This document shows, in pieces, positions 19,693 through 54,190 of a stretch of 64,000 nt of DNA (its first letter is position 1; the number at the start of each line of letters is the position of its first letter). The DNA lies in assembly GCA_963727485.1 (NCBI GenBank), contig CAVSGM010000002.1, positions 198,854 through 262,853 on the forward strand, read 5' to 3'. The DNA comes from an uncultured delta proteobacterium (GTDB lineage Bacteria > Myxococcota > Myxococcia > SLRQ01). The notes beneath the pieces were generated by a model that saw only the letters and a list, made by a program, of their open reading frames with translations, ran no database searches and was not told where the DNA came from. Made by a program: the position numbers and the translations under genes.

Positions 19693-20214
19693 TCAGGGCC
19701 CGGCGCGGAGGGCGGGCAGCGCCGCCGCGCCGGCGTGCGCGAACCGGGCGCAGGCGGACTGCCTCGGCGCCAGGCGCACCAGGAGCAGGAGGCACCCGGC
19801 GGCGATGGCCAGGTTTGGCCAGTGCCCCTGCACCGCGTAGACCACCGCGTCGAAGGCCCCCGCGGCGAAGATCAGGCCCCAGGGGATCGAGAGCCGCGCC
19901 CCGTAGGCGAGGACCAGCCGCGCGCCATCGCCGAGCTCCGGGGCGCCGGCGGGCCAGGTGCCATGGGCGATCTTGTAGAGGAGCCCGCGGCGGTAGGGCC
20001 CCCACACCAGGGCGGCGGTGAACAGGAAGGTCGCCGCCACCACCACGCCCGCGGGGACGATGAGGCCGATCTTGGGGTTGGCGGCCGGGGGCGCGAGGGC
20101 CTGGAGGGCGCCGGCGGCGGCGACCCCGACCCCGAGGAGGCCGGTGAGGATGCCATGGCGCCACCGCTGGCGCGGCGGGACCCGGACGGTCGGCAGTGGG
20201 GTGGGATCGGCCAT
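19693..20214 (-). CDS. Small integral membrane protein (hypothetical)
   Basis: Internal Met (codon 198) of ORF 19693..20805: MADPTPLPTV...GLLGVGVAAAGALQALA...IVPAGVVVAATFLFTAALVWG...; hydrophobic segments. The upstream part of the ORF is GC-frame read-through. Confidence 0.5.
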   Translation of the reverse strand: MADPTPLPTVRVPPRQRWRHGILTGLLGVGVAAAGALQALAPPAANPKIGLIVPAGVVVAATFLFTAALVWGPYRRGLLYKIAHGTWPAGAPELGDGARLVLAYGARLSIPWGLIFAAGAFDAVVYAVQGHWPNLAIAAGCLLLLVRLAPRQSACARFAHAGAAALPALRAGP

Positions 20215-20326
20215 GAAGCTCGCGGCGCGGCAGGGTAGCACTTCCGACCGGGCGGCACCCGATGGTTTCGAGGCGGGCTGCCTGCTACCATCAGATTTTG
20301 CCCGGGGCGACCCCGCGTCGAATCGC

Positions 20327-21898
20327 ATGATCGATTTCGCACGGTTCGAAGACCTCCACATCGTCCGGAAGATTCGCGAGAAGATCCGGGGGTGGTGGAA
20401 CATCGAGCTCTCGTATGCCGACGAGAGCGGGTACGTCCTCGACCACGCCCAGGGGAAGATCGTTCCGCCCCACAACGACCTCTGCCAGGGATCCCTGGGG
20501 CACCGCGAGGGCTTCCAGCGGTGCAACACCTCGGTGGAGCGGGCCATCGCCCAGATCCGCGGCGAGACCGAGATCCGGGCCCGGGTGGTCCAGACCTGCC
20601 ACCTGGCCTTCCCCCTGGTCCTGGTGCCGGTGGTCGATGACCTGGGGGTGTTCCACGGCGCCATCTTCGCCGGGGGCTTCCTCATCGACGACGAGGTCGA
20701 CGACCGGCGCCGGCGCATCCTCGACGAGACCGCCCGCCAGGGGCTCCCGGTGGCCGATCCCGACCAGGCCTTCGCCGGGATCCCGGTGATCCGGCGCCGC
20801 GACATGGACTACTTCTGCGACCTCCTCGAGACCACCGTCGAGGAGATCGTCGAGTTCAACAAGGCCCTGCGCGAGCGCGAGACCCGCATCGAGGCCCTCA
20901 CCGGCGAGCTCGAGGGGCGCTACCGGTTCGGCAACATCGTGGGCAAGTCCCCGGCGATGCGCCGGCTCTTCTCGCTGCTGGAGAAGGTGGTGCAGTCGGA
21001 CAGCACCATCCTGGTCACCGGGGCGAACGGCACCGGCAAGGAGCTCATCGCCCGGGCGCTCCACTACAACGGGCCGCGGGCCCGGGGCCCCTTCGTGGTC
21101 CAGAACTGCTCGGCGCTCAACGACAACCTCCTGGAGAGCGAGCTCTTCGGCCACGTGAAGGGCGCGTTCACCGGCGCCACCCGGGACAAGCAGGGCCTGT
21201 TCAAGGTGGCCGACGGGGGCACCTTCTTCCTCGACGAGGTCGGGGACATGTCCATGGCCATGCAGGTCAAGCTCCTCCGGGTCCTCCAGGAGGGCACCTT
21301 CATCCCCGTGGGCGGGACCGGCGCGGTGAAGGTCGACGTCCGCATCATCACCGCCACCAACCGCGACCTGAAGCAGATGGTCGAGCGCCGGGAGTTCCGC
21401 GAGGACCTCTACTACCGCCTCAACGTCATCAACGTGGAGGTGCCCCCCCTCCGGGACCGCAAGGAGGACCTGCCGCTCCTGGTGGCCCACTTCCTGGAGC
21501 AGCACGTCGACGGCCGGGGGCCCAAGCGCCTGGCCTCCGAGATCATGGCCCGGTTCTACGCCTACGACTGGCCCGGGAACGTCCGGGAGCTGGAGAACGA
21601 GATTGAGCGGCTGGTGGTCCTCTCCGGCGAGGGCGAGCTCATCGACGAGGGGGTCCTCGACGTGGCCACGCGCCCCTACCCGGAGGCGGCGAACCCGGCG
21701 CGCCTCGCCGGGAAGGGAGACCTCGCCAGCGCGGTTGCGGCCCTGGAGCGCGAGATGATCCGCGAGGGGCTGGTCGCCACCCACTGGAACAAGACGCGAC
21801 TGGCCGAGCGCCTCGGGGTCTCGCGCACTACGCTCATCAAGAAGATCAAGGAGTACGGCCTCGAGGAGCGGGGGAACCCGCTGGCCGAGGGGCACTGA
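20327..21898 (+). CDS. Sigma-54-dependent transcriptional activator with a non-receiver N-terminal Cys/His-containing sensory domain
   Basis: MIDFARFEDL...; AAA+ core GKSPAM...TGANGTGKEL...GAFTGA...GTFFLDEVGDM...ESELFGH...; C-terminal HTH; N-terminal about 190 aa has no receiver Asp motif. Confidence 0.85.
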   Translation: MIDFARFEDLHIVRKIREKIRGWWNIELSYADESGYVLDHAQGKIVPPHNDLCQGSLGHREGFQRCNTSVERAIAQIRGETEIRARVVQTCHLAFPLVLVPVVDDLGVFHGAIFAGGFLIDDEVDDRRRRILDETARQGLPVADPDQAFAGIPVIRRRDMDYFCDLLETTVEEIVEFNKALRERETRIEALTGELEGRYRFGNIVGKSPAMRRLFSLLEKVVQSDSTILVTGANGTGKELIARALHYNGPRARGPFVVQNCSALNDNLLESELFGHVKGAFTGATRDKQGLFKVADGGTFFLDEVGDMSMAMQVKLLRVLQEGTFIPVGGTGAVKVDVRIITATNRDLKQMVERREFREDLYYRLNVINVEVPPLRDRKEDLPLLVAHFLEQHVDGRGPKRLASEIMARFYAYDWPGNVRELENEIERLVVLSGEGELIDEGVLDVATRPYPEAANPARLAGKGDLASAVAALEREMIREGLVATHWNKTRLAERLGVSRTTLIKKIKEYGLEERGNPLAEGH

Positions 21899-39890: not shown

Positions 39891-39965
39891 GCGCGCGTAA
39901 CTCAGCGGTAGAGTGCCACCTTCACACGGTGGAAGTCGCTGGTTCGAACCCAGCCGCGCGTACCA
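39891..39965 (+). tRNA. tRNA-Val (anticodon CAC)
   Basis: GCGCGCGTAACTCAGCGGTAGAGTGCCACCTTCACACGGTGGAAGTCGCTGGTTCGAACCCAGCCGCGCGTACCA: 7-bp acceptor stem, D-stem ACTC/GAGT, anticodon stem CCACC/GGTGG with loop TTCACAC, T-arm GCTGG-TTCGAAC-CCAGC, encoded CCA. Confidence 0.9.
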
Positions 39966-40029: not shown

Positions 40030-41568
40030 ATGGCTGCTTCCGAGCGCAGGCCCCGGGCCCTGGTCGTCGACGACGACGACGGGATGCGTGGGAACATGGC
40101 CCACATCCTCGAGGCCGACGGCTTCGAGACGGTGGGCGCGGTCGACGGGATGGACGCCCTGGGGCGGCTCGAGCGCGCCAGCTTCGACATCGCCCTCCTC
40201 GACATCCAGATGCCGGGCATCGACGGCCTGGAGACGCTGAAGCGGATCCGGGAGAAGGCGCCGGAGGTCGAGGTGGTGATGGTCACGGTGCTCAAGGAGA
40301 TCCCCAAGGTCGTCGAGGCGATGAAGCTCGGGGCCTTCGACTTCCTCACCAAGGACTTCCGGGCCAGCGAGCTGCAGCTCAAGGCCCAGCAGGCCCTGAC
40401 CCACAGGCGCACCGCCCGGCAGATGGCCTACCTCCGCGACGAGGTGGAGCGACAGGCCCCCGGCGAGATGATCATGGGCGACGGGCCGGCGATGCGCGAG
40501 GTGTCGACCCTGGTCGACAAGGTGGCGCCGCTCCCCGCCACGGTGCTGGTCCTCGGCGAGAGCGGGACGGGCAAGGAGCTGCTGGCCAGGCGTCTCCACC
40601 GCATCTGGTCCGGGGGCGACAAGAAGAAGCCCTTCGTCACGGTGAACCTGGCGGCGATGCCCGCCAGCCTCATCGAGTCCCAGCTCTTCGGGCACGAGAA
40701 GGGGGCGTTCACCGGGGCCACCGAGCAGCGCCTGGGGAAGTTCGAGCTCGCCGACGGAGGCACGCTCTTCCTCGACGAGATTGGCGAGCTGCGCCTCGAT
40801 CTCCAGGCGAAGCTCCTGCGCGCCATCCAGGAGCGCGAGGTGGAGCGCCTCGGGGGCAAGCGTCCGGTGCCGGTGGATGTCCGGCTCATCACCGCCACCA
40901 ACGTCGACCTCAAGGAGGCGGTCCACGCCGGTCGCTTCCGTGAAGACCTCTACTACCGCATCAACGTCATCCCCATCCGGCTGCCGCCCCTGCGCGAGCG
41001 CATCGAGGACGTGCCGGTGCTGGCGCGGCACTTCGCCCGGAAGGCGGGGCAGCGGTTCAACCGGCCAGTGCCCGAGCTCACCGACACGGCGCTCGAGGTG
41101 CTGATGCGCTACCCCTGGCCCGGGAACGTCCGGGAGCTGGAGAACCGCATCGCCGGGCTGGTGGCGGTGCAGGACCGGCCGGTCATCGACGACGTGGACC
41201 TGCCCATCGAGTTCAGCTACCCGCGCTTCTACGACGAGGCCCGGCGCAAGAAGGCGGACGGGCTGGCGGTGGCGCTCACGGCCTTCGAGCGGTCGTTCAT
41301 CGCCATGACCCTGGAGAAGACGGGGTGGCACCGGAAGCAGGCGGCGGCGGAGCTGGGCATCGGCTACTCGACGCTGAAGAAGAAGCTCAAGAAGCTGGGT
41401 GCTCGCGCCGCCCGGGGGGCGCCACGCCGACGGGGACCCGGACGGCGACGACGACGAGGGGTGAGCCCTCACCGGCGCCGGAGGGACGTGGCGCGCGTGG
41501 CCGGCGTCGTCAGGCGGCGTCGGGGGACGACTCGGCCACCGGGGGACTGGCGCGCCGGGGCAGGGTGA
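40030..41568 (+). CDS. NtrC-family sigma-54-dependent response regulator (receiver, AAA+, HTH) with Arg-rich C-terminal extension
   Basis: MAASERRPRALVVDDDDG...DIALLDIQMPGIDG (receiver) ...GESGTGKELLA...GAFTGA...ELADGGTLFLDEIGEL...AAELGIGYSTLKKKLKKLG (HTH); the last about 55 aa are low-complexity and overlap the convergent kinase gene, so the true stop may be earlier. Confidence 0.85.
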   Translation: MAASERRPRALVVDDDDGMRGNMAHILEADGFETVGAVDGMDALGRLERASFDIALLDIQMPGIDGLETLKRIREKAPEVEVVMVTVLKEIPKVVEAMKLGAFDFLTKDFRASELQLKAQQALTHRRTARQMAYLRDEVERQAPGEMIMGDGPAMREVSTLVDKVAPLPATVLVLGESGTGKELLARRLHRIWSGGDKKKPFVTVNLAAMPASLIESQLFGHEKGAFTGATEQRLGKFELADGGTLFLDEIGELRLDLQAKLLRAIQEREVERLGGKRPVPVDVRLITATNVDLKEAVHAGRFREDLYYRINVIPIRLPPLRERIEDVPVLARHFARKAGQRFNRPVPELTDTALEVLMRYPWPGNVRELENRIAGLVAVQDRPVIDDVDLPIEFSYPRFYDEARRKKADGLAVALTAFERSFIAMTLEKTGWHRKQAAAELGIGYSTLKKKLKKLGARAARGAPRRRGPGRRRRRGVSPHRRRRDVARVAGVVRRRRGTTRPPGDWRAGAG

Positions 41569-43288
41569 CCACGAAGACGGCGCCGCCGCTGGGGCGGTTC
41601 CCGGCGGAGACGGTGCCCCCCTGCTCCTCGACGATGCGACGGACCACGGCGAGGCCGAGGCCGAGGCCGTTGCCCGAGCCCTTGGTGGTGCGGAAGGCGT
41701 CGAAGAGGTCGTGGAGGAGCGCCGGGGGGATGCCCGGGCCGTCGTCCTCGACCACCACGGTGACCCGGCTCGCCTCGAGGCCGACGCGGAGGGTGACGTG
41801 TCCCCCGTGGTCGCGGAGGGCGTCGAGGGCGTTCTCCACGAGGTTGCGCACGGCGCGCTCGAGGGCCAGGGCGTCGACCTCGACCATGGGGTCCCCGTCG
41901 CCCTCGACGACCAGGGCGAGGGAGATGCCGCGGGTGCGGGCGGTGGCGGTGAGGCTGCCCTCGAGGCGACGGAGGAGGTCGGGGAGGAGCACCGGCGCGG
42001 CCTCGGCCTCCCGGGGGTTGGCGAACTCCGAGAGGTCGGCGAAGAGCCGGTCGATGTAGGCCTGCTCCCGGTCGAGGTTCGCCTCGAGGTCTTGGCGGGT
42101 GGCCTCGGTCTCGGGGATGTCGAGGAAGGTCCGGACGTGGGTGATGAGGTGCTGGAACGGGCGCTTGAGATCGTGGGCCAGCCCGCCGGCGATGCGGCCG
42201 AAGAACGCCAGGCGCTCCTGGCGGCGAATCTCCTGGGTGAGGGTGCCGAGGTCCTCGGCCATGTGGTTGAAGCCCCGGGCCAGGTCGCCGAGCTCGTCGG
42301 GGCGGTCGTGGTGGACGCGGACGGTGAAGTCGCCCTCGCCGATGCGCCGGGCGCCGGCGGCGAGGCGCTCCACGGGGTTGACGATGGTCCGGGCGCCGAT
42401 GAAGGTCACGGTGCCCACGGCGAGGAGCGCCGCGAAGAGCACGATGAGCAGGCCGAGGCCGAGCGCCCGCGCCTGGGCGAAGGCGTCCCGCGCAGGTGTC
42501 TCCACCACGGCGACCCAGTCGGTGCCCGGGACGGAGGCGGCGGCGCCGACCACCTGCAGCCCGTCGCGGCGGTCATAGGTCGCCGACACGGCGCCGCCGT
42601 CCTTCTCCACCTCGTTCACGATCTTCGGGGTGGGGTAGGGGCGGCGCTGGATGGCGTAGACGAGCTCCTTGGCGATGCCGTGGGCGAAGAGGTGCCCGTG
42701 GCGGTCGACGAGGTAGGTGTAGCCGGTGCGACCGAGGCGCAGGTCGCGGACCATGGACCACAGCTCCAGGGTGTCGACCTCGGCGGCGAGCGCCCCCACG
42801 GTCCGCCCGAGGCGGTGGACCGGCACGGCCACGGCCATCACCGGCAGCAGGTCGTCGCCGATGACCACCTGGGTCACCTGGGGCTTGCCGGTGGCCAGGG
42901 TCTTGTCCGCGGCGCCGCGCACCAGCTTGGAGGGCCCCTTGTCCGGCAGCAAGGTGCTGAAGGTCCGTTTGCCCCCGTGGTCGAAGTCGACCAGGTAGCG
43001 CAGGGTGCGGTCCTCGAGGAGCGCCCGCGCCAGCACCCGGTCGGTCTCGGTGGCGTCGAGCCCGTTGCCCGGGCTCACCGCCGCCCCCACCGCCCGCACC
43101 ACGTCCACGCGCCCGCGGACGAAGGCCCCGACCCGCTTGGCCACCTCCGACGCCGCCGCCCGGGTCCCGGCGGTCACGCCCTCCTGCGCCCCGCGGATTC
43201 CGGACCAGGTGGCGTAGACCCCGTAGGCGCCGAGGGGAAAGAGCGTGGTGAGCGCCAGGAAGAGCAGGAGCTTGGCGCGCAGGCGCAT
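41510..43288 (-). CDS. Sensor histidine kinase (two TM segments, periplasmic sensor domain, HAMP, HisKA, HATPase)
   Basis: MRLRAKLLLFLALTTLFPLGAYGVY (TM1), about 270-aa extracytoplasmic region, LGLGLLIVLFAALLAVGTVTFIGA (TM2), ...FFGRIAGGLAHDLKRPFQ (H-box)...ENALDA...GNGLGLGLAVVRRIVE... Confidence 0.85.
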   Translation of the reverse strand: MRLRAKLLLFLALTTLFPLGAYGVYATWSGIRGAQEGVTAGTRAAASEVAKRVGAFVRGRVDVVRAVGAAVSPGNGLDATETDRVLARALLEDRTLRYLVDFDHGGKRTFSTLLPDKGPSKLVRGAADKTLATGKPQVTQVVIGDDLLPVMAVAVPVHRLGRTVGALAAEVDTLELWSMVRDLRLGRTGYTYLVDRHGHLFAHGIAKELVYAIQRRPYPTPKIVNEVEKDGGAVSATYDRRDGLQVVGAAASVPGTDWVAVVETPARDAFAQARALGLGLLIVLFAALLAVGTVTFIGARTIVNPVERLAAGARRIGEGDFTVRVHHDRPDELGDLARGFNHMAEDLGTLTQEIRRQERLAFFGRIAGGLAHDLKRPFQHLITHVRTFLDIPETEATRQDLEANLDREQAYIDRLFADLSEFANPREAEAAPVLLPDLLRRLEGSLTATARTRGISLALVVEGDGDPMVEVDALALERAVRNLVENALDALRDHGGHVTLRVGLEASRVTVVVEDDGPGIPPALLHDLFDAFRTTKGSGNGLGLGLAVVRRIVEEQGGTVSAGNRPSGGAVFVVTLPRRASPPVAESSPDAA

Positions 43289-44616
43289 CTAGTGGGCCTT
43301 GGCCGGGCGGATGGAGAGGGCCAGCGAGTAGGGCTCGGTCGAGTCGGGCTTGGGATGGACGAAGCGGAAGCGCTTGGAGGTGACGGCGACGCGGGGGAGC
43401 ACGCCCAGCGGCACGAAGGGCGGGTTCTCCGCGAGGCGCTTGCGGATGTCCTTCCAGGTCGCGCCCTTGGCGAGCATGGCGTCGAGGACCGGGTCGTGGT
43501 GGTGGCCGACGTTCAGGCGGGCGCTCGATGGCGACATACAACGTTGGGGCCCGAGCGGGTGGCGCAAGTTGATGAAGCTAGGCGGAGGTCGAGCTTCCAT
43601 GGGCTGGCCAAGTCGCTGCTTGGGCCACATGCTGTCACATGAGCCTGGACTCCTGCATCCGCTAGGCTCACGAAGAGGTCTTCGGTCGCCATGCGCGATC
43701 TCCTCGAGGTTGACGATCTCGAGGTCTAGCGGCTTGGTGATGGTCTTCAGCATCCTCTTGCACCCAGCGCGGAGGGGCGTGTCAGAACCGACTTGCCGAT
43801 GGACCCGTGCGGGCGTCGGGGCCAGCCCATAGGCGACCTGCCAACGCCCGGAAGGCAGGAGTGATGGCTCTGGCAATGCACCGCCGGACCGCCGTGACTT
43901 TGGAGTAGGGGCTCATCTTCGTTGAAGACGAGCACAGCCTCGGTGTTCCTCTGCAGTACGGAGTCACCAGTCCTACCCGAGGCAGCGAGCAGGCGATCGT
44001 GCTGTAGGGGGAGCCCGCCGGCCACGTCGGCGTCGCCGGCTAGCAGGTGGGCGAAGACGGCCACGCGGCCCCGAGACGTGTCGGACGACCATCAGCCGAG
44101 GGTCGTGCATGGGCTGCACGGCGCGCGAGACAGATCCGGCTGGGCGCTCTGGGAGCGACCCGGTACGGGCCTGCGCCAATCCACGCCCCGTCCCGACCTC
44201 TTCGGGCAACGGGTGCCCACGGGACCGCGTGCATGTCCGGTGTCGGCAGGTGCAGGATACAGCCTGCCGTTGCGCTGCCAGTGCCAGCTCTCGCTCTGGG
44301 ACCCCAGATGCAGCTCACGGCGGATCGCGCTGACGAGGTCGCGCGGCCGGATCGGGGAGCCGTCCTGGAAGTACCAGGTCGGCTTGAGGTTCGACCGCAC
44401 AAGGATTCTCGCTGGGGCAGTGCAGGGCAGCCGGATAAGACGTGATCCGAGTGGAGGCGCAATTAGGTCGAGCAGGGTGGCCGAGTCGCCGTTGTGGGGC
44501 ATGCCGGGAACGAGCGGCTCGAGAGGGCGGGGTGAGACCCACACGAGCGGTCGCTCCTGGCGCTGGCGGGCGTGGCCTGACACAGGCCGACAGGAGAAGC
44601 CCAAGCGCAAGCGCAA
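43289..44616 (-). other. Gene remnant/degraded region: intact-looking C-terminal about 80 codons (43289-43540) followed upstream by about 1.1 kb of lower-GC sequence with stops in all frames
   Basis: Reverse strand ...HHHDPVLDAMLAKGATWKDIRKRLAENPPFVPLGVLPRVAVTSKRFRFVHPKPDSTEPYSLALSIRPAKAH* is protein-like with high-GC codon use; upstream only short discontinuous ORFs (e.g. ...TWYFQDGSPIRPRDLVSAIRRELHLGSQSESWHWQRNG...); local GC about 58-62%. Confidence 0.35.
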
Positions 44617-44735
44617 GCGGTACAGTCCTTCGGTGCCTCACCGAGACAGCCTAGTCGTAGTCGCGCAGTCCGACGGAAGACAAAGGCCCCCGTCGCTGAC
44701 GAGGGCCTCTCGAATCTCAGAACGGTGACCGCGGG

Positions 44736-44804
44736 TTAGAAGCCGGCGAGGGCGTCGCAGGGGATGCGCTTCCGATTCCGCTTGTTGAGGGGCTTCTTGA
44801 CCAT
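44736..44804 (-). CDS. 22-codon cationic small ORF (MVKKPLNKRNRKRIPCDALAGF) immediately downstream of the radical SAM gene; candidate peptide
   Basis: ATG preceded by AAGGAAGG at about 7 nt; 69 nt to TAA; single Cys; about 120 nt after the radical SAM stop on the same strand. No homology could be checked. Confidence 0.3.
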   Translation of the reverse strand: MVKKPLNKRNRKRIPCDALAGF

Positions 44805-44925
44805 GGCGAACCTTCCTTTCGGGAAGTGGGGGGACTTCGTTGGGGGGGACTTCAGGGGGCAGAGGTCGGGCTTGCAGGTCCCCACACGTGGGGAGCCTCC
44901 CGGCCCCGGCGTCGGACAAAGGCGG

Positions 44926-46254
44926 CTAGGCCGCCACTTCCTCCGAGGGCATCCGGCCCTCGTAGAACTCGTCGAGGTAGCGCCGCTTCAGGGTCTCGCG
45001 GCCCACCGTGTCGAAGTAGTCGTGCTCACAGCTCACGCCGAGGGTGCCGTTGCGGCGGTAGGTCGTCGCCCGGCAACCGCCGGCGCACACGGGCAGGTAC
45101 TCGCACTGGCCGCAGTCCTTCACCGGGTCGAGGCTCTCGAGGAGCTCGACGCGGGGCAGCCAGCGGTCGTCGGTGATCCGGCCGACGGCCATCTTCGGAT
45201 CGCCCACCAGGACGTCGCACTTGTAGAGGTAGCCGCCGGCGTCGACGAGCAGGTACTGGTCCATGTGGAGGCCACAGGGGCCGAGGCCGAACTCGGGCTC
45301 GGGGCTGAGGCCCGAGCTCACCGCCTTCATCTGGAGGTGGACCAGGCCGTCGGGGTCGGCGTCGGAGATGCGGGTGGCGCAGTCGCCGTCGCCGCGTCCG
45401 TCGAGGACCGGCTTGAACTTCAGCTCGCTGATGGCGTCGGCGAGCCCCTCGCGGCGCAGCACGTCGGCGAGCTCGCCGTACGCGTGCTCGAGGCCCGCGG
45501 GCACGTTGCTGCCGATGTGGATGCGCACCCGCCCGGCGACCGCCTTGAGGTTCGCGAGGATCTGGTCCCAGGAGCCCGTCCCGTCCTTGCGAACCCGGCT
45601 CTGGTCGTGGTGGTGCTTGGGCCCGTCGAGGGTGACCTTGACCGACTCGAGCCCCAAGGGCGCCATGGCGTCGACGAAGGGCCGGTCGAGGAGGGCGCCG
45701 TTGGTGATGATCCGGCAGCTGAAGGCGCGACCGTCCTCGGCGAGCTCGCGCTGGAAACGCTCGGCGGTGCGGAGGATGAGGGGCTTCTTGAGGAGCGGCT
45801 CGCCGCCGAAGTAGGTGAGCTCCAGGGTGTGGAGGTCGTAGCGGGCCATCCGGCGCCGGACCCAGCCGTGGAGCGCCTGCTCCACCGTCTTGCCCATCCC
45901 CGGCCCGCTGGGGCCACCCTCGGCCTCGTAGCAGTAGGGGCACCCGAAGTTGCAGTTCTCGGTGACCAGCACCCGCAGGCGCAGCACTCCGTCGCCCTGC
46001 TTCATCCCCAGCATGAAGTCGCGGAGGGCGGCGTCGTCGGCGACCTCGTCCTCGACGAGGAAGCCCTCGGCCGAAAGGTAGTCGACCTCCTCCTGCTCGA
46101 GGGCGCTCGCCGGCGGCCCGCCCGACAGGGACCCGACCCAGCCGAGGGCCCGGTCGTCGAGGCCGACCAGGTTGTCGGTCAGGGTGTTGTAGAGGACGTG
46201 CTCCCCGGGGAGTGGGAAGTCTCGGATGAGGACGTGGAACCGGGTGAGCTGCAT
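44926..46254 (-). CDS. Radical SAM/SPASM-domain protein (peptide-maturase-like), 442 aa
   Basis: MQLTRFHVLIRDFPLPGEHVLYNTLTD... about 95-aa N-terminal domain, then VTENCNFGCPYCYE (CxxxCxxC), GGEPLL; C-terminal auxiliary-cluster motifs C-x18-C and CGQCEYLPVCAGGC (Cx2Cx5Cx3C) plus terminal VSC; GGGAG RBS. Confidence 0.85.
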   Translation of the reverse strand: MQLTRFHVLIRDFPLPGEHVLYNTLTDNLVGLDDRALGWVGSLSGGPPASALEQEEVDYLSAEGFLVEDEVADDAALRDFMLGMKQGDGVLRLRVLVTENCNFGCPYCYEAEGGPSGPGMGKTVEQALHGWVRRRMARYDLHTLELTYFGGEPLLKKPLILRTAERFQRELAEDGRAFSCRIITNGALLDRPFVDAMAPLGLESVKVTLDGPKHHHDQSRVRKDGTGSWDQILANLKAVAGRVRIHIGSNVPAGLEHAYGELADVLRREGLADAISELKFKPVLDGRGDGDCATRISDADPDGLVHLQMKAVSSGLSPEPEFGLGPCGLHMDQYLLVDAGGYLYKCDVLVGDPKMAVGRITDDRWLPRVELLESLDPVKDCGQCEYLPVCAGGCRATTYRRNGTLGVSCEHDYFDTVGRETLKRRYLDEFYEGRMPSEEVAA

Positions 46255-46299
46255 GGGGTGTCTCCCTGAATCGCCCCCCGAGAGAGCAGGGAGCGTGCC

Positions 46300-46660
46300 A
46301 CCCGCCAGGGGGCTCCAAATCGAGCCCTCCCGACTCGGCTCAGCGGTCCAAGCTGGAAATCTCAATTGATTTCAACCACCTGTCACCAAGGCTCAAAATA
46401 GAGCCCCACGTGGCTACCCTCGCCCGAAGCGACACAAGCCACCGGAATCACTGTGAATCGCCTGGACCAGGCCCCGAATGGGGCTTATCCCGACCCCAGG
46501 GGACTCTTCCAAAAAACACCTGTGATCACAAGGCGTTGGAAAGAGGGTGGCGACCCCGCCGGGGCACGTCGCCCAGCTTCGGGAAAGGGCTCCATTTGGA
46601 GCCCTTTCGTCCCGGGGCGGGGCCAGATCACGGGGAAATACCAATAAAAACCGTGATTTG
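46300..46660. promoter_or_regulatory. AT-richer intergenic control region with multiple palindromes between the radical SAM gene and the divergent small-protein/kinase operon
   Basis: GGGCTC-caaatc-GAGCCC (about 46310-46327), GGCTC-aaaata-GAGCC (about 46390-46405), GAAAGGGCTCCA-tt-TGGAGCCCTTTC (about 46583-46608), TGTGATCACA (about 46521-46530), TCAATTGA, ATCACGG-N18-CCGTGAT; codon usage in short ORFs here is atypical. Confidence 0.3.
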
Positions 46661-46741
46661 GGCGCAGCCGCTCCTAGGCGAGCCCTCAGGTCTCACCCTA
46701 GAGCCAGTGGTGGCACGCCGCTGGCAAAAGAGACCAGTGCA

Positions 46742-46990
46742 ATGTCCAGGCTCGCCAAGGTCAAGGTCGTCGAGCTCGACGGGAAAAAGGTGTTCCTCCA
46801 CTTCTACGAGGACGTCTCGACCCTCGGGACGCCCCGCTACTCGGTGGAGATCCGCTTCGGCCCCGAGGACCGCGTCGTCTTCGACGGCCCCAGCATCTCG
46901 GACCTCGAGGCGACCACCCAGGCCTGCCTCCCTGCCACCTGGGCCAGCCGGCGGATGCTCGCCGGCGCGGCCTACGGCGCCCCCCACTGA
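46742..46990 (+). CDS. Small protein (82 aa, hypothetical) translationally coupled to the downstream histidine kinase
   Basis: MSRLAKVKVVELDGKKVFLHFYEDVSTLGTPRYSVEIRFGPEDRVVFDGPSISDLEATTQACLPATWASRRMLAGAAYGAPH; stop overlaps the kinase ATG (TGATG). Confidence 0.5.
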   Translation: MSRLAKVKVVELDGKKVFLHFYEDVSTLGTPRYSVEIRFGPEDRVVFDGPSISDLEATTQACLPATWASRRMLAGAAYGAPH

Positions 46991-47865
46991 TGCAACCCCT
47001 CGCCTCCCAGCCGACGCCCTCGCGTCCCTACCGCGCCGATCCCATGCCCCGCGACCCCGAGCTTCACGCCGCCCGCCTCGTCGAGCTGGGCAGCCTGGTA
47101 CCGGGGCTGGTGCACGAGCTCTCGAACCCGGCCGCGGTCCTCCGGGGCAACCTCGGCGCCGTCGTCGACCACGCCGACACCCTGGGCCGACTGGTCAACG
47201 GCCTCGACCAGGGGCAGGACGCCTCGGCCCTGCGCCGGGACCTCGAGCTCGATGACACCGCCATCGACCTCGCCGAGCTGGTGGGCGAGTCCGCCGGCGC
47301 CCTCGACGAGCTGGTCTCCCTCCTCGGCGACATCCGTCACTACGCCGCCGGCGCCGAGGCCGAGGCCGAGGCCGATCTCGCCTCGGCCGTCGCCGCCGCC
47401 CTGCGCCTCGCCACCTACGAGACCAAGTACCGGGCCGCCGTGAGCGTCGGCGTCGGCGACCTCCCTCGGATCGCCCTGTGCCCCGTCCACCTGGTGCAGC
47501 TGGTGCTGGCCCTCATCCTCAACGCCGCCCAGGCCCTCGCCGACCACCGGCAGCTCCACGGCGACCTGGGCCACGTGTCCCTCTCGGCCAGGGCCGAGGG
47601 CGACGACCTCGTCGTCCTCGAGGTCCGCGACGACGGCCCCGGCGTGTCCCCCGACCTCGCCGACCGCGTCTTCGAGCCCGGGGTCACCTCGCGGCCCGGG
47701 GCCAGGGGCATGGGCCTGTACCACGCCCGGAACCTCCTCGAGCGCGCCGGTGGCGCCCTCGTCCTCCAACCGCCCCGTGGCGGGGGCGCCGTCTTCGTCG
47801 CGCGCCTGCCCGCCCTCTCCGACGACATTCACAGTGAGGCCATCGGTCCTGTCCACAAGACATAG
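46990..47865 (+). CDS. Soluble histidine kinase core (HisKA plus HATPase, no TM or recognisable sensor domain)
   Basis: ...ARLVELGSLVPGLVHELSNPAAVLRGNLG (H-box near N-terminus)...ILNAAQAL...LEVRDDGPGVSPDLADRVFEPGVTSRPGARGMGLYHARNLLERAGGAL. Confidence 0.75.
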   Translation: MQPLASQPTPSRPYRADPMPRDPELHAARLVELGSLVPGLVHELSNPAAVLRGNLGAVVDHADTLGRLVNGLDQGQDASALRRDLELDDTAIDLAELVGESAGALDELVSLLGDIRHYAAGAEAEAEADLASAVAAALRLATYETKYRAAVSVGVGDLPRIALCPVHLVQLVLALILNAAQALADHRQLHGDLGHVSLSARAEGDDLVVLEVRDDGPGVSPDLADRVFEPGVTSRPGARGMGLYHARNLLERAGGALVLQPPRGGGAVFVARLPALSDDIHSEAIGPVHKT

Positions 47866-47989: not shown

Positions 47990-48379
47990 CTACGCCTCGG
48001 GCGTCTCGGTCTCCCGCTTGCGCAGCATGTACTTCACCTTGCGCATCAGCCCGTCGAGGTCGAAGGGTTTCTCGATGAAGTCCTCGGCCCCGAGCTCCAG
48101 GCCGAGCTGGCGGCTGAAGGGGTCGCCCCGGGCCGAGAGGAAGAGGACCGGGATCGCCCGGGTCTGGTCGTCGGCCTTCAGCGCCCGGCACACGTCCCGG
48201 CCGTCCATCCGCGGCATGTTCACGTCGAGGACCACCAGGTCGGGTTGGTCGCTCTGGGCGAGGGCGAGGCCCTCGACGCCATCGGCCGCGGTGATCACCG
48301 TGAAGCCGTGGCGCTCGGCGGTGCGACGGAAGATCGTGCGCAGCTCGGCGTCGTCGTCGACGAAGAGGAGGCGAGCCAT
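47990..48379 (-). CDS. Single-domain (CheY-like) response regulator
   Basis: MARLLFVDDDAELRTIFRRTAERHGFTVITAADGVEGLALAQSDQPDLVVLDVNMPRMDGRDVCRALK...IPVLFLSARGD...; 129 aa; convergent with the kinase core. Confidence 0.8.
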   Translation of the reverse strand: MARLLFVDDDAELRTIFRRTAERHGFTVITAADGVEGLALAQSDQPDLVVLDVNMPRMDGRDVCRALKADDQTRAIPVLFLSARGDPFSRQLGLELGAEDFIEKPFDLDGLMRKVKYMLRKRETETPEA

Positions 48380-48451
48380 GGCGGGCATTATAGGGATCGA
48401 TCGCGTCCGCGTCTCTCCATCGGTCGCGCTCCGGTGATACGCTCCCGGGCC

Positions 48452-52480: not shown

Positions 52481-54047
52481 TCAGCGTGCGGCCTGGCGCG
52501 GCTCCTCGAGGCCGTACTTCTCACACTTCGCGATGAGGTTCGAGCGGCTCACGCCCAGCTCGCGCGCGAGGCGCGACTTGTTCCAGTGGGTGCGGATGAG
52601 CCCCTGGTGGATCATCTCCCGCTCCAGGGCCTCGACGGCGTGCTTGAGCTTGCCGGTGGTCTTGATGGGGCTGACCCCCTTGGGCGTCCCCACCGCGTCG
52701 CGGATCCGGGGGCTGACCAGGTCGACCCCGAGCTCGCCGTCGTCGGCGCCGAGGACCAGGAGCCGCTCGAATCTCGTTCTCGAGCTCGCGGATGTTCCCG
52801 GGCCAGTCGTAGGTGCCCAGCAGCTCGAGGCACTCGCGCGCGAGGGTCCGGGCGTCGCCGTTGCCGTGCTTGCGCAGGAAGTGCTCCACCAGCAGGGGGA
52901 TGTCGTCGCGGCGCTCGCGCAGGGCCGGGACGTCGATCTTGATGACGTTGATCCGGTAGTAGAGGTCCTCGCGGAACTCGCCGGCCTCGACCATCTTGGC
53001 CAGGTCCTTGTGGGTGGCGGCGATGACCCGGACGTCGACCTCCCTGGCGGAGGTCCCGCCCACCGGCGTGAAGGTGCCCTCCTGGAGCACCCGGAGGAGC
53101 TTGACCTGGAGGGTGGGGGACATGTCCCCGACCTCGTCGAGGAAGAAGGTCCCGCCGTCGGCGACCTCGAAGAGGCCCTTCTTGTCCTTGATGGCGCCGG
53201 TGAACGCGCCCTTCACGTGACCGAAGAGGGCGCTCTCCAGGAGGTTGTCGTTGAACGCCGAGCAGTTCTGGACCACGAACGCCTTGTCCTTGCGCGGCCC
53301 GTTGTAGTGGATGGCCCGGGCGACCAGCTCCTTGCCGGTGCCGCTCTCCCCGTGGACCAGGACCGTGGAGTCGGAGTTGCACACCTTCTCCAGGACCCGG
53401 TAGACGTCCTGCATCGCCTGGCTGGAGCCGATGATGGACTCGAAGCGGTAGCGCTCGGAGAGCTCGTCGGAGAGGTGCTGGATCTCCCGGTCGCGCTTGC
53501 CCATCTCCAGCTCGAAGGCGGCAATCTCGTCGGCGCCGAACTCGAGGAGGTCGCAGAGCTTCTCCACGCCCTCCGGGGGGATCACCGGGAGCCGCTGGAC
53601 GGCCCGGTCGAGGTCGGTGGCCCCGGGGTTGAGCACCCGGATCCGCGAGCTGGCCTGCTCGACCTGCCGCTCGGTGAGATCCTCCCGGAGGAAGCCACCG
53701 ACGAACATGAAGCCCTTGTACTCGGAGGCCACCACGATGGGGCAGCCGACGATGGTGAACCCCAGGTGGCAGTCGTGGAAGAGGCAGCGCCTGGGCTTCT
53801 TGCTGGCGCGGAACTTGTCGCCGACGAACTTCACCGACTCGTTGCAGCGCCGAAAGCCCTCCTTGGAGAAGAGCGAGAGGCGGCAGAAGTCGTTGTTCGG
53901 GGGGATGATCTGGCCGTTGGCGTGCTCGAGGACGTAGCCGGTCTTGTCGGCGAAGGCGAGCTCGAGGCCCCACCACTTGCGGATCACGTCCCGCAGCATG
54001 ATGATGGTGTGCAGGTTCTGGTAGCGCTCGTACTCCTGCAACGCCAT
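52481..54047 (-). CDS. Sigma-54-dependent transcriptional activator, paralogue of the 20327-21898 gene (same N-terminal Cys/His domain), frame change near 52765-52775
   Basis: MALQEYERYQNLHTIIMLRDVIRKWWGLELAFADKTGYVLEHANGQIIPPNNDFCRLSL...KEGFRRCNESV...; AAA+ core GESGTGKELVA...GAFTGA...GTFFLDEVGDM; HTH tail ...HWNKSRLARELGVSRSNLIAKCEKYG in ORF 52481..52693 frame; [11 protein letters not shown]. Confidence 0.8.
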
Positions 54048-54134
54048 GCTCTTTCTCCTCCCGGGACGGCCAGCGGTAAGGCGCCCCTTGGTGACTTGAC
54101 CTGACCGGCGACACCCCACCGCCGGCTGCACAGA

Positions 54135-54190
54135 ATCAGGACAATCCTACCGGCCCGATGTAGACAATCGCAAGGCACGATTGTCCTGAT
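54135..54190. promoter_or_regulatory. Nested inverted/direct repeats of GACAATC in the promoter region between the second sigma-54 activator and the divergent downstream gene
   Basis: ATCAGGACAATC ...16 nt... GACAATCG ...7 nt... CGATTGTCCTGAT: the right arm is complementary to both left copies; coordinates approximate. Confidence 0.3.

What the first reader, a model, noticed from the sequence alone, without database searches (positions are those of the whole stretch)
46300..46660. Palindrome-dense, AT-richer control region upstream of the radical SAM gene
Three related GGGCTC...GAGCCC inverted repeats (the longest a 12+12 bp perfect palindrome), a perfect TGTGATCACA palindrome and further inverted repeats cluster in about 350 bp between the radical SAM gene and the divergent small-protein/kinase operon. 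This density suggests several operator sites for dimeric regulators, or a structured non-coding RNA.
Basis: seen in the sequence. Interest (0 to 1): 0.5.

Follow-up and report, generated by a model that had tools for sequence, protein, structure and literature searches.

The report
Shared enhancer of two sigma-54 promoters
The palindromes are real, conserved protein-binding sites lying between two back-to-back sigma-54 promoters. They most likely dock a nearby NtrC-type response regulator that switches on a radical SAM peptide-maturation operon and a divergent small-protein/kinase operon. This is an ordinary kind of control region, but it belongs to an undescribed gene module.

Summary
The motif is GGCTC-N6-GAGCC. 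Its only three exact copies in the 64 kb window lie at 46311, 46390 and 46588, where about 0.002-0.004 are expected (P about 1e-8). Two weaker copies lie at 46669 and 46690.

Two -24/-12 sigma-54 promoters flank the sites and point outwards: TGGCACGCTCCCTGC (46300-46286, minus strand, radical SAM gene) and TGGCACGCCGCTGGC (46711-46725, plus strand, small ORF and kinase).

In five orthologous loci (53-82% protein identity) the palindrome arms, both promoters and the site spacing (79-82 bp) are kept, while the spacers and the surrounding sequence diverge. In 80 more distant loci both promoters recur, GGC-N10-GCC dyads are 9-fold enriched, and the same gene module recurs. The module is: small protein | radical SAM - 21-27 aa precursor peptide - SBP-like protein - Cache kinase, then a convergent NtrC-type activator. 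The window has that activator at 40030-41568.

There is no Rfam hit and no covariation, and the sites lie upstream of both predicted starts, so an RNA reading is not supported. TGTGATCACA is a chance match and is not conserved.

Verdict: upstream activator sites of a divergent sigma-54 promoter pair, a new member of a known kind. Binding by the activator is inferred, not shown.

The parts
46286..46300 (-). Sigma-54 type -24/-12 promoter of the radical SAM operon (TGGCACGCTCCCTGC). The predicted start is about 46274, giving a leader of about 20 nt with an AGGGAGA Shine-Dalgarno sequence.
   Evidence: It is the only exact TGGCAC-N5-YTGC match in the window. The GG/GC elements are invariant in all 6 aligned orthologues, 33-37 nt (50 in L003) from the start codon. 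An exact TGGCAC-N5-TTGC sits before the radical SAM gene in 63 of 80 wider-family loci, and a one-mismatch TGGCAT variant in 11 more. The start site is inferred.
46310..46327 (.). Palindrome 1, GGGCTCCAAATCGAGCCC, centred at about -44.5 from the radical SAM promoter (promoter-proximal site).
   Evidence: Exact match. The arms are invariant in 6 of 6 orthologues and the spacer varies. The offset from the -12 GC is 31.5-32.5 bp in 5 loci and 42.5 bp (about one helical turn more) in L003.
46353..46377 (.). AT-rich patch midway between palindromes 1 and 2. It may be a DNA-bending or IHF-type site.
   Evidence: It is the most AT-rich 20-mer stretch of the intergenic region. A patch lies at a similar position in L008, L003 and L005. 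No WATCAANNNNTTR match was found, so this role is conjectural.
46389..46406 (.). Palindrome 2, AGGCTCAAAATAGAGCCC, centred at about -123.5 from the radical SAM promoter (distal site).
   Evidence: Exact core match. The arms are invariant in the 5 orthologues that reach it. It lies 79-81 bp from palindrome 1 in every orthologue.
46583..46608 (.). Palindrome 3. The core GGGCTCCATTTGGAGCCC is at 46587-46604, within the 12+12 perfect palindrome. It is centred at about -141.5 from the small-ORF promoter (distal site).
   Evidence: The core is conserved in L002, L008 and L003. L005 instead has an exact copy elsewhere in its intergenic region. The extension beyond the core and the longer hairpin 46571-46623 (-53.9 kcal/mol, z = -3.6) are not conserved.
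46634..46660 (.). Second AT-rich patch (GGAAATACCAATAAAAACCGTGATTT), between palindromes 3 and 4.
   Evidence: Read from the sequence. In the alignment the equivalent position in the orthologues looks relatively A/T-rich, by eye only. Its role is conjectural.
46668..46685 (.). Palindrome 4, CCGCTCCTAGGCGAGCCC (one mismatch in the 10-nt core), centred at about -60.5 from the small-ORF promoter.
   Evidence: One-mismatch equivalents lie at the same offset in L002 and L008 and at a similar one in L005, 81-82 bp from palindrome 3 in L002 and L008.
46689..46706 (.). Palindrome 5, GGTCTCACCCTAGAGCCA (weak copy), 21 bp from palindrome 4 and centred at about -39.5 from the small-ORF promoter.
   Evidence: The L003 equivalent is an exact GGCTCCCTCGCGAGCC. 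A 21-bp spacing is the commonest inter-site spacing in the wider family. This is the weakest site.
46711..46725 (+). Sigma-54 type -24/-12 promoter of the small-ORF/kinase operon (TGGCACGCCGCTGGC). The predicted start is about 46737, giving a leader of about 5 nt.
   Evidence: one mismatch. TGGCA[C/T]G-N4-TGGCA is conserved in all 5 orthologues that reach it. A sigma-54-like element (mostly TGGCGC-N5-TTGCT) precedes the small ORF in 67 of 70 non-redundant loci.
44926..46254 (-). Radical SAM/SPASM peptide-maturase gene (442 aa), first gene of the regulated operon.
   Evidence: Pfam Radical_SAM and Fer4_12. NCBIfam SPASM domain; the best family match is TIGR04280 'geopeptide radical SAM maturase' at 222.7 bits, below its cutoff of 400.
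44736..44804 (-). Short ORF with a ribosome-binding site, MVKKPLNKRNRKRIPCDALAGF (22 aa). It is the putative precursor peptide.
   Evidence: It is conserved directly downstream of the radical SAM gene in the close orthologues. In nearly all wider-family loci the equivalent is MKIKRSxRKSxRKAxPCxxhh..., in 1-3 copies. No NCBIfam match.
43295..44553 (-). SBP_bac_5-like gene, split over two reading frames in the window (frameshift, pseudogene or assembly error).
   Evidence: tblastn of the L002 and L003 downstream proteins hits frames -2 and -1. Pfam SBP_bac_5 matches the intact homologues.
41510..43288 (-). dCache_1-HAMP-HATPase sensor histidine kinase, last gene of the operon.
   Evidence: Pfam. 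It holds the same position in the module in the wider-family loci.
40030..41568 (+). NtrC-family response regulator (REC, sigma-54-interacting AAA+ with GAFTGA, HTH_8), convergent with the kinase gene. It is the proposed binder of the palindromes.
   Evidence: GAFTGA motif. NCBIfam AtoC/NtrC-type matches. It is 52% identical to the convergent regulator of L012, against 44% to another activator in that locus. A convergent homologue of about 50% identity follows the Cache kinase in 31 loci. The recognition helix IGYSTLK is invariant.
46742..46990 (+). Conserved 82-aa protein of unknown function, divergent from the radical SAM gene.
   Evidence: Orthologues align. Divergent homologues occur in about 70 loci. 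No Pfam or NCBIfam match. The model has four strands and two helices (pLDDT 77.6) with no significant PDB match.
46990..47865 (+). 291-aa cytoplasmic histidine kinase. Its start codon overlaps the stop codon of the small ORF.
   Evidence: Pfam HATPase_c. The arrangement is kept in L002, L003 and L005.
47990..48385 (-). 131-aa receiver-only response regulator with no DNA-binding domain.
   Evidence: Pfam Response_reg only. A receiver-only gene lies at the matching position in L003.

Best explanation
The 487-bp intergenic region is a bidirectional sigma-54 control region.

Two outward-facing -24/-12 promoters sit at its edges. One (46300-46286, minus strand) drives the operon radical SAM - precursor peptide - SBP-like - Cache kinase. 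The other (46711-46725, plus strand) drives the small protein and the 291-aa kinase.

Between them lie four to five GGCTC-N6-GAGCC dyads, centred at about -44 and -123 from the first promoter and at about -39, -60 and -141 from the second. These are upstream activator (enhancer) sites.

Inferred mechanism:
1. The Cache-HAMP kinase (41510-43288) phosphorylates the NtrC-family regulator (40030-41568).
2. Dimers of the regulator bind the dyads through their Fis-type HTH. The half-sites are 11 bp apart centre to centre.
3. The bound dimers assemble into an AAA+ ring and reach the closed sigma-54 holoenzyme complexes, probably across the AT-rich spacers.
4. ATP hydrolysis opens both promoters.

Because the kinase lies in the activated operon, the circuit would be positively autoregulated.

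Shown: the sites, their statistical significance, their conservation and fixed geometry, both promoters, and the conserved link between this module and this regulator family.
Inferred: sigma-54 use, the start sites, the identity of the binding protein, phosphotransfer, and DNA bending.
For: - All exact GGCTC-N6-GAGCC copies in the 64 kb window lie in this region; P is about 1e-8.
- In five orthologous loci (53-82% radical SAM identity) the arms are invariant, the spacers and flanks diverge, and the geometry is fixed. Palindrome 1 sits 31.5-32.5 bp from the -12 GC, or one helical turn more in L003. Palindromes 1-2 are 79-81 bp apart and 3-4 are 81-82 bp apart.
- Both -24/-12 elements are conserved in these orthologues.
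- In the wider family an exact TGGCAC-N5-TTGC precedes the radical SAM gene in 63 of 80 loci, and a one-mismatch TGGCAT variant in 11 more. A sigma-54-like element precedes the small ORF in 67 of 70.
- No sigma-70-like promoter is found in the region.
- GGC-N10-GCC dyads number 198 against 21 expected in the 260 nt upstream of the promoter across 68 non-redundant loci. The consensus is GGCY(C/A)G-AWTN-C(T/G)GGCC, with a preferred 21-bp spacing.
- A convergent REC-AAA+-HTH_8 activator about 50% identical to window 40030-41568 follows the Cache kinase in 31 loci, all but one of those that extend far enough.
- The window regulator is closer to that cluster regulator (52%) than to another activator in the same locus (44%).
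- Its recognition helix IGYSTLK is invariant across the cluster regulators and differs in an unrelated PocR-type activator.
Against: - No binding, transcription-start or sigma-54-dependence data exist. Everything rests on sequence and comparison.
- Sites at about -39, -44 and -60 are closer to the promoter than classical activator sites (-80 to -200). They may act differently, for example as low-affinity or limiting sites.
- The plus-strand promoter has TGGC rather than TTGC at -12, and its predicted leader is only about 5 nt.
- No IHF consensus was found.
- The window holds two other sigma-54 activators, both PocR-type (20210-21898 and 52521-54146). The second is syntenic in L005 and L006 and cannot be excluded as the binder.
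- No regulator gene from the close clade (L002, L003, L008) is on the short contigs, so co-variation between regulator and site could not be tested.
- rpoN is not in the window.
Confidence: 0.72

Rival explanations
1. The dyads are bound by a different protein. Candidates are a classical repressor or operator-binding protein, one of the PocR-type sigma-54 activators in the window, or the conserved 82-aa protein. The NtrC-type regulator would then act elsewhere or not at all.
For: - Palindromes 1, 4 and 5 lie within about 15-36 bp of the -24 elements. A repressor or anti-activator could block the holoenzyme or the activator from there.
- A PocR-type activator is syntenic in L005 and L006.
- The small protein is as tightly linked to the module as the regulator is.
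Against: - The same motif also sits at the classical enhancer distances of -123 and -141.
- In the wider family the dyads peak at about -110 to -130 in 21-bp tandems.
- The PocR-type activator is not part of the conserved module in the 80 wider loci, and its HTH differs.
- The small protein has no detectable DNA-binding fold or family.
Confidence: 0.17
2. The palindromes form hairpins of a structured non-coding RNA or a cis-regulatory leader, such as a riboswitch, an attenuator or a small RNA transcribed from the intergenic region.
For: - The window sequence around palindrome 3 folds into a long hairpin (-53.9 kcal/mol, z = -3.6).
- There is a weak Rfam hit, LAGLIDADG-2, at 24.7 bits with E = 0.046.
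Against: - The Rfam hit is far below its gathering score of 94.9, and nothing else matches.
- The core arms never vary. Covariation is no higher than in shuffles (129 of 500 shuffles reach the observed score) or than in the slid controls.
- The extended hairpin is not conserved.
- Wider-family sites have unlike half-sites (GGCTCG...CTGGCC), which would mispair as RNA.
- All sites lie upstream of both conserved outward-facing promoters, and no sigma-70 promoter or terminator is predicted inside the region.
Confidence: 0.03
3. The repeats are a dispersed repetitive element (REP or MITE-like), or a chance cluster in GC-rich DNA, with no locus-specific role.
For: Short GC-rich palindromes are common in high-GC genomes. 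With one mismatch allowed, 17 matches occur against 12.5 expected in the window.
Against: - No exact copy occurs elsewhere in the 64 kb, and the clustering has P about 1e-8.
- The copies sit at fixed positions relative to the promoters in independent orthologous loci whose flanking DNA has diverged.
Confidence: 0.02

Closest known systems
E. coli zraP-zraSR intergenic region (ZraR/HydG activator sites between divergent sigma-54 promoters). Cited from my own knowledge, not checked here.
   Same: Two divergent sigma-54 promoters share inverted-repeat activator sites in one intergenic region. One arm encodes a small accessory protein. The two-component system is itself activated, giving positive autoregulation.
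   Different: - Here the kinase is in the activated operon, but the regulator gene is separate and convergent.
- The motif (GGCTC-N6-GAGCC) and the cargo (radical SAM/SPASM peptide maturation) are unrelated.
- The region is longer, with about 80-bp site pairs for each promoter.
- The regulator scores below the ZraR cutoff (363.7 against 760 bits).
NtrC enhancer at glnAp2: strong sites near -140 and -108, and weak promoter-proximal sites down to about -45. Cited from my own knowledge.
   Same: - An NtrC-family regulator with a Fis-type HTH.
- Dyad sites with half-sites one helical turn apart.
- Several sites per promoter, including sites close to the -24 element.
- Activation of sigma-54 from a distance.
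   Different: - The half-site sequence differs (NtrC: TGCACC-N5-GGTGCA).
- The window regulator scores below the NtrC cutoff (410.8 against 558.6 bits).
- One site set serves two promoters.
- The function of the proximal sites is untested.
Geopeptide radical SAM maturase system (NCBIfam TIGR04280)
   Same: The radical SAM/SPASM enzyme aligns over its full length with this model, which is its best match (222.7 bits). A short peptide gene lies next to it.
   Different: - The score is well below the family cutoff of 400.
- The putative precursors match no NCBIfam model.
- Nothing was found in the paper library on regulation of that system.

Membership tests
Sigma-54 (-24/-12) promoters | GG and GC dinucleotides exactly 10 bp apart within a TGGCAC-N5-TTGCW-like sequence, oriented towards the gene | tested here: met
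   Minus strand 46300-46286, TGGCACGCTCCCTGC (0 mismatches to TGGCAC-N5-YTGC). Plus strand 46711-46725, TGGCACGCCGCTGGC (1 mismatch).
Sigma-54 (-24/-12) promoters | Conservation of the element at a fixed distance from the start codon in orthologues | tested here: met
   Present in all 6 (radical SAM side) and all 5 (small-ORF side) close orthologues. Before the radical SAM gene, 63 of 80 wider-family loci have an exact match and 11 more a one-mismatch match. Before the small ORF, 67 of 70 non-redundant loci have a sigma-54-like element.
Sigma-54 (-24/-12) promoters | No competing sigma-70 -35/-10 promoter | tested here: met
   No sigma-70-like sites in 45800-47200. This was a simple consensus scan only.
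Sigma-54 (-24/-12) promoters | rpoN present; transcription depends on sigma-54; start site about 12 nt downstream of the GC | not testable with these tools
   rpoN is not in the window. Three sigma-54 activator genes in the window imply that the genome has sigma-54. No transcript data are available.
Enhancer-binding-protein upstream activator sites (NtrC type) | Dyad-symmetric sites with half-sites about one helical turn apart, conserved in sequence rather than by compensatory change | tested here: met
   GGCTC and GAGCC are 11 bp apart centre to centre. The arms never vary and the spacers do.
Enhancer-binding-protein upstream activator sites (NtrC type) | Two or more sites, about 80-200 bp upstream of the promoter | tested here: inconclusive
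   Palindromes 2 (-123.5) and 3 (-141.5) fit. Palindromes 1 (-44.5), 4 (-60.5) and 5 (-39.5) are closer than the classical range. Wider-family dyads peak at about -110 to -130, with others at -50 to -90.
Enhancer-binding-protein upstream activator sites (NtrC type) | A cognate activator with a DNA-binding domain genetically linked to the target | tested here: met
   A REC-AAA+(GAFTGA)-HTH_8 regulator lies at 40030-41568. A convergent homologue ends the module in 31 loci. The recognition helix is invariant.
Enhancer-binding-protein upstream activator sites (NtrC type) | Direct binding of the activator, and site-dependent activation | not testable with these tools
   Needs EMSA or footprinting, and reporter mutagenesis.
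Enhancer-binding-protein upstream activator sites (NtrC type) | An IHF or intrinsic bend between sites and promoter (common, not obligatory) | tested here: inconclusive
   AT-rich patches lie at 46353-46377 and 46634-46660, but there is no WATCAANNNNTTR match within one mismatch in the window and no consistent match in the orthologues.
Structured non-coding RNA or riboswitch | Match to a curated RNA family | tested here: not met
   The best hit is 24.7 bits against a gathering score of 94.9. Only a tRNA passes threshold in the whole window.
Structured non-coding RNA or riboswitch | Compensatory base-pair changes that support the helices | tested here: not met
   The covariation score is 0.080 against a shuffle mean of 0.070 (129 of 500 shuffles as high). 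Helices 1 and 2 never vary in 5 of 6 pairs each. The extended hairpin is not conserved.
Dispersed repeat element (REP or MITE) | Many copies scattered through the genome | tested here: not met
   No exact copy lies outside 46311-46603 in the 64 kb. The rest of the genome is not available.

The most novel reading that the evidence does not exclude
The region would be the cis-regulatory hub of an undescribed peptide circuit found in many metagenome loci.

The circuit has these parts: a radical SAM/SPASM maturase; a 21-27 aa precursor with a strongly basic leader and a single invariant Cys; an SBP-like periplasmic protein; a Cache kinase; an NtrC-type activator; and a small protein with a beta-sheet followed by two helices. 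408 stretches matched in metagenomes. The few source names given for homologues are myxobacterial.

In this reading the matured peptide, or a ligand it controls, is sensed by the SBP-like protein and the Cache kinase. The signal feeds back through the palindromes and sigma-54. That would make a peptide autoinduction loop of a kind not described for Gram-negative radical SAM peptides.
Probability: 0.25. Interest if true: 0.65.

Novelty: new member of a known kind. Interest (0 to 1): 0.35.

Why it matters
The architecture itself is textbook bacterial regulation: divergent sigma-54 promoters sharing activator sites. A specialist would not be surprised by it.

The value lies in what it annotates. 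It gives a concrete, testable recognition motif (GGCTC-N6-GAGCC, or more generally GGCYNG-N4-CNRGCC) and a candidate regulator for a conserved, uncharacterised radical SAM peptide module seen in dozens of metagenome loci. It also exposes the unannotated precursor-peptide gene. Together these make the inducing signal and the product of the cluster experimentally approachable.

Tried and rejected
- **Wrong spacer.** My first motif search used a 7-nt spacer and missed every site. It was corrected to N6.
- **Wrong frame.** I first translated the small ORF from 46743, which is the wrong frame. The correct start is 46742. The repeat searches still found no family.
- **Genome scan.** The scan of genome contigs with the radical SAM protein found only one distant, uninformative locus, L001. 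Orthologues came from the protein search and contig look-ups instead.
- **RNA reading.** Tested with Rfam, RNAalifold, single-sequence folding and pair counting, and rejected.
- **TGTGATCACA and the ACACCTGT direct repeat.** The palindrome is a chance-level match and neither is conserved.
- **IHF consensus.** No consistent site.
- **Small protein as the DNA binder.** No family, no HTH in the model, and no significant PDB match. A sensitive search found only 19 homologues and gave no annotation.
- **Literature.** Searches for 'geopeptide', for the motif together with sigma-54, and for radical SAM together with myxobacteria and regulators found nothing relevant.
- **L010 and a few other distant loci** (L013, L015, L016, L058) lack the small ORF, the SBP-like gene and the motif. 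I did not use them.
Full report
**1. What is in the sequence**

The region lies between two genes. The radical SAM/SPASM gene is on the minus strand (44926-46254; Pfam Radical_SAM and Fer4_12; SPASM domain). On the plus strand is an 82-aa ORF (46742-46990), whose stop codon overlaps the start of a 291-aa histidine kinase (46990-47865).

The intergenic 487 bp has GC 0.605-0.63, against 0.70-0.77 in the flanking genes.

The repeated motif is GGCTC-N6-GAGCC. The spacer is 6 nt; my first search with 7 nt found nothing.
- Exact copies: 46311, 46390 and 46588. These are the only exact copies in the 64 kb window.
- One-mismatch copies: 46669 and 46690.

A first-order Markov model expects 0.55 exact copies per 64 kb and 0.002-0.004 in this intergenic region. 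Three copies therefore give a Poisson P of 2e-9 to 1e-8, or about 3e-6 after correcting for scanning the whole window. The pentamers GGCTC and GAGCC occur 9 times against 1.7 expected.

The 12+12 palindrome (46583-46608) is an extended form of the third copy.

TGTGATCACA (46521-46530) is what chance gives: 0.58 perfect 10-bp palindromes are expected and P = 0.45.

**2.

Directly outside the palindrome cluster are two sigma-54 type -24/-12 elements, each pointing at its gene.
- TGGCACGCTCCCTGC on the minus strand (46300-46286). It is the only exact TGGCAC-N5-YTGC match in the window.
- TGGCACGCCGCTGGC on the plus strand (46711-46725).

The two -24 elements form the 10-nt inverted repeat I15. 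No sigma-70-like promoter and no terminator is predicted in 45800-47200.

Taking the C of the GC dinucleotide as -12, the inferred starts are as follows.
- About 46274 on the minus strand. This gives a 20-nt leader with an AGGGAGA Shine-Dalgarno sequence.
- About 46737 on the plus strand. This gives a 5-nt leader.

The centres of the palindromes then fall at these positions:

| Palindrome | Relative to the radical SAM promoter | Relative to the small-ORF promoter |
|---|---|---|
| 1 | -44.5 | |
| 2 | -123.5 | |
| 3 | | -141.5 |
| 4 | | -60.5 |
| 5 | | -39.5 |

**3. Close orthologues**

The radical SAM protein has relatives at 82, 78, 71, 59 and 53% identity. Their contigs (L009, L002, L008, L003, L005-L007) carry the same divergent small ORF and kinase.

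In the alignment of the intergenic regions (A1):
- The arms of palindromes 1 and 2 are invariant in every sequence that covers them. The core of palindrome 3 is kept in three of the four orthologues that reach it.
- The spacers differ (CAAATC, GATATC, CAATTG, GATCTC, CAATTA, CGAATG).
- Both -24/-12 elements are conserved.
- The sequence between them has diverged beyond recognition.

The geometry is also fixed:
- Palindrome 1 lies 31.5-32.5 bp from the -12 GC in five loci. In L003 it lies 42.5 bp away, about one helical turn more.
- Palindromes 1 and 2 are 79-81 bp apart.
- Palindromes 3 and 4 are 81-82 bp apart.

TGTGATCACA is not conserved, and neither is the long hairpin around palindrome 3.

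**4. The wider family**

A profile scan of metagenomes returned 80 loci at 34-38% identity, out of 408 confirmed stretches.

- *Promoters.* 63 of the 80 loci have an exact TGGCAC-N5-TTGC, and 11 more a one-mismatch TGGCAT variant, 13-17 nt before the radical SAM start codon. Those transcripts would be nearly leaderless. A sigma-54-like element, mostly TGGCGC-N5-TTGCT, precedes the divergent small ORF in 67 of 70 non-redundant loci.
- *Sites.* In the 260 nt upstream of the radical SAM promoter, GGC-N10-GCC dyads number 198 against 21 expected across 68 non-redundant loci. The consensus is GGCY(C/A)G-AWTN-C(T/G)GGCC. The commonest spacing between sites is 21 bp, two helical turns; further peaks are at 19, 37 and 84 bp. 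The window's GGCTC-N6-GAGCC is therefore a clade-specific, more symmetric version of a widespread site.
- *Gene order.* tblastn against all loci shows one conserved module: small protein (divergent) | radical SAM -> SBP_bac_5-like -> dCache kinase, then a convergent REC-AAA+-HTH_8 activator. A convergent activator about 50% identical to window 40030-41568 follows the kinase in 31 loci. That is every locus that extends far enough except L011.

The window has the same order:
- radical SAM gene, 44926-46254, minus strand;
- SBP-like gene, 43295-44553, minus strand, split over two frames;
- Cache-HAMP kinase, 41510-43288, minus strand;
- activator, 40030-41568, plus strand.

The window activator is 52% identical to the convergent activator of L012, but only 44% identical to another NtrC-type activator in that locus. 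Its recognition helix, IGYSTLK(x)KLK, is invariant among the cluster activators and differs in an unrelated PocR-type activator. This matches the shared GGC...GCC core of the sites.

**5. Mechanism**

The best-supported reading is a shared enhancer for two divergent sigma-54 promoters. The steps below are inferred.
1. The Cache-HAMP kinase phosphorylates the NtrC-type regulator.
2. Regulator dimers bind the dyads, whose half-sites are 11 bp apart.
3. The dimers oligomerise into the AAA+ ring and contact the closed sigma-54 complexes, probably across the AT-rich spacers (46353-46377 and 46634-46660).
4. ATP hydrolysis opens both promoters.

The kinase gene lies in the activated operon, so the loop is positive.

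The promoter-proximal sites (-39 to -60) are closer than classical activator sites, and their role is open. NtrC at glnAp2 also has weak proximal sites that limit expression at high activator levels (my own knowledge). An IHF consensus was not found.

None of sigma-54 dependence, the start sites, or binding has been shown.

**6. Rivals**

- *A different binding protein.* A repressor, a PocR-type activator or the 82-aa protein cannot be excluded. It is less likely because the motif also sits at enhancer distances. In addition, the PocR activator is not part of the module, and the small protein shows no DNA-binding family or fold.
- *A structured RNA.* This is not supported. There is no Rfam match and no covariation beyond shuffles. 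In the wider family the half-sites are asymmetric and would mispair as RNA. The sites also lie upstream of both promoters.
- *A dispersed repeat or chance.* This is excluded within the limits of the 64 kb window and by the positional conservation.

**7. Comparison with known systems**

Functionally the region works like the zraP-zraSR divergent sigma-54 region and like NtrC enhancers (my own knowledge). The regulator scores below the curated cutoffs of AtoC, NtrC and ZraR, so it is an unnamed member of the NtrC family.

The radical SAM enzyme is nearest to TIGR04280, 'geopeptide radical SAM maturase', but at 222.7 bits against a cutoff of 400 it is not a member.

No paper on this module or motif was found.

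**8. Verdict**

The 'operator' interpretation is half right, and the RNA interpretation is wrong.

The feature is a new member of a known kind: sigma-54 upstream activator sites shared by divergent promoters. Its interest is moderate to low in itself. It gains some interest because it gives a motif and a candidate regulator for a widespread, uncharacterised radical SAM peptide module.

Noticed in passing
window 44736-44804 (minus strand); also L002 from 3303, L009 from 1539, L003 from 5904, and most of L011-L092: An unannotated short ORF with a ribosome-binding site lies directly after the radical SAM gene. In the window it reads MVKKPLNKRNRKRIPCDALAGF. In the wider family it reads MKIKRSxRKSxRKAxPCxxhh... 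(21-27 aa), with a basic leader and one invariant Cys, and occurs in 1-3 tandem copies (for example L063 and L089). It is the likely precursor peptide and matches no NCBIfam family.
   Followed up: partly
window 43295-44553 (minus strand): The SBP_bac_5-like gene between the radical SAM gene and the Cache kinase is split between frames -2 and -1 in the window. It is intact in L003, L011 and L012. This could be a frameshifted pseudogene or an assembly error. It explains the apparently gene-free 1.6 kb at 43289-44925.
   Followed up: partly
L013-L092; window 46725-46742: In the wider family the -12 GC of the radical SAM promoter is only 13-17 nt from the ATG. In the window the small-ORF promoter is 16 nt from its ATG. 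The predicted sigma-54 transcripts would therefore be nearly leaderless, with no Shine-Dalgarno sequence.
   Followed up: no
window 46742-46990: The conserved 82-aa protein divergent from the radical SAM gene has no family. Its predicted fold is four strands followed by two helices (pLDDT 77.6), with no significant PDB match. It is present in about 70 loci of the module, but only 19 homologues were detected by single-sequence HMMER.
   Followed up: partly
window 20210-21898 (plus strand) and 52521-54146 (minus strand): Two further sigma-54 activators lie in the same 64 kb. The 52521-54146 gene matches, by gene order, the activator that carries a PocR sensor domain in L005/L006; the 20210 gene has a similar N-terminal region, and neither was scanned against Pfam here. 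The translation of the 52521-54146 gene turns into an Arg/Pro-rich tail where the HTH should be, which suggests a frameshift. Its neighbourhood (LexA, an alpha/beta hydrolase) is syntenic with L005 and L006.
   Followed up: no
window 46571-46623: In this genome only, palindrome 3 sits inside a roughly 50-nt imperfect hairpin (-53.9 kcal/mol, z = -3.6). The hairpin is not conserved in the orthologues and has no evident function.
   Followed up: yes
window 39891-39965: A tRNA-Val (CAC) gene lies about 65 nt upstream of the NtrC-type regulator gene.
   Followed up: no
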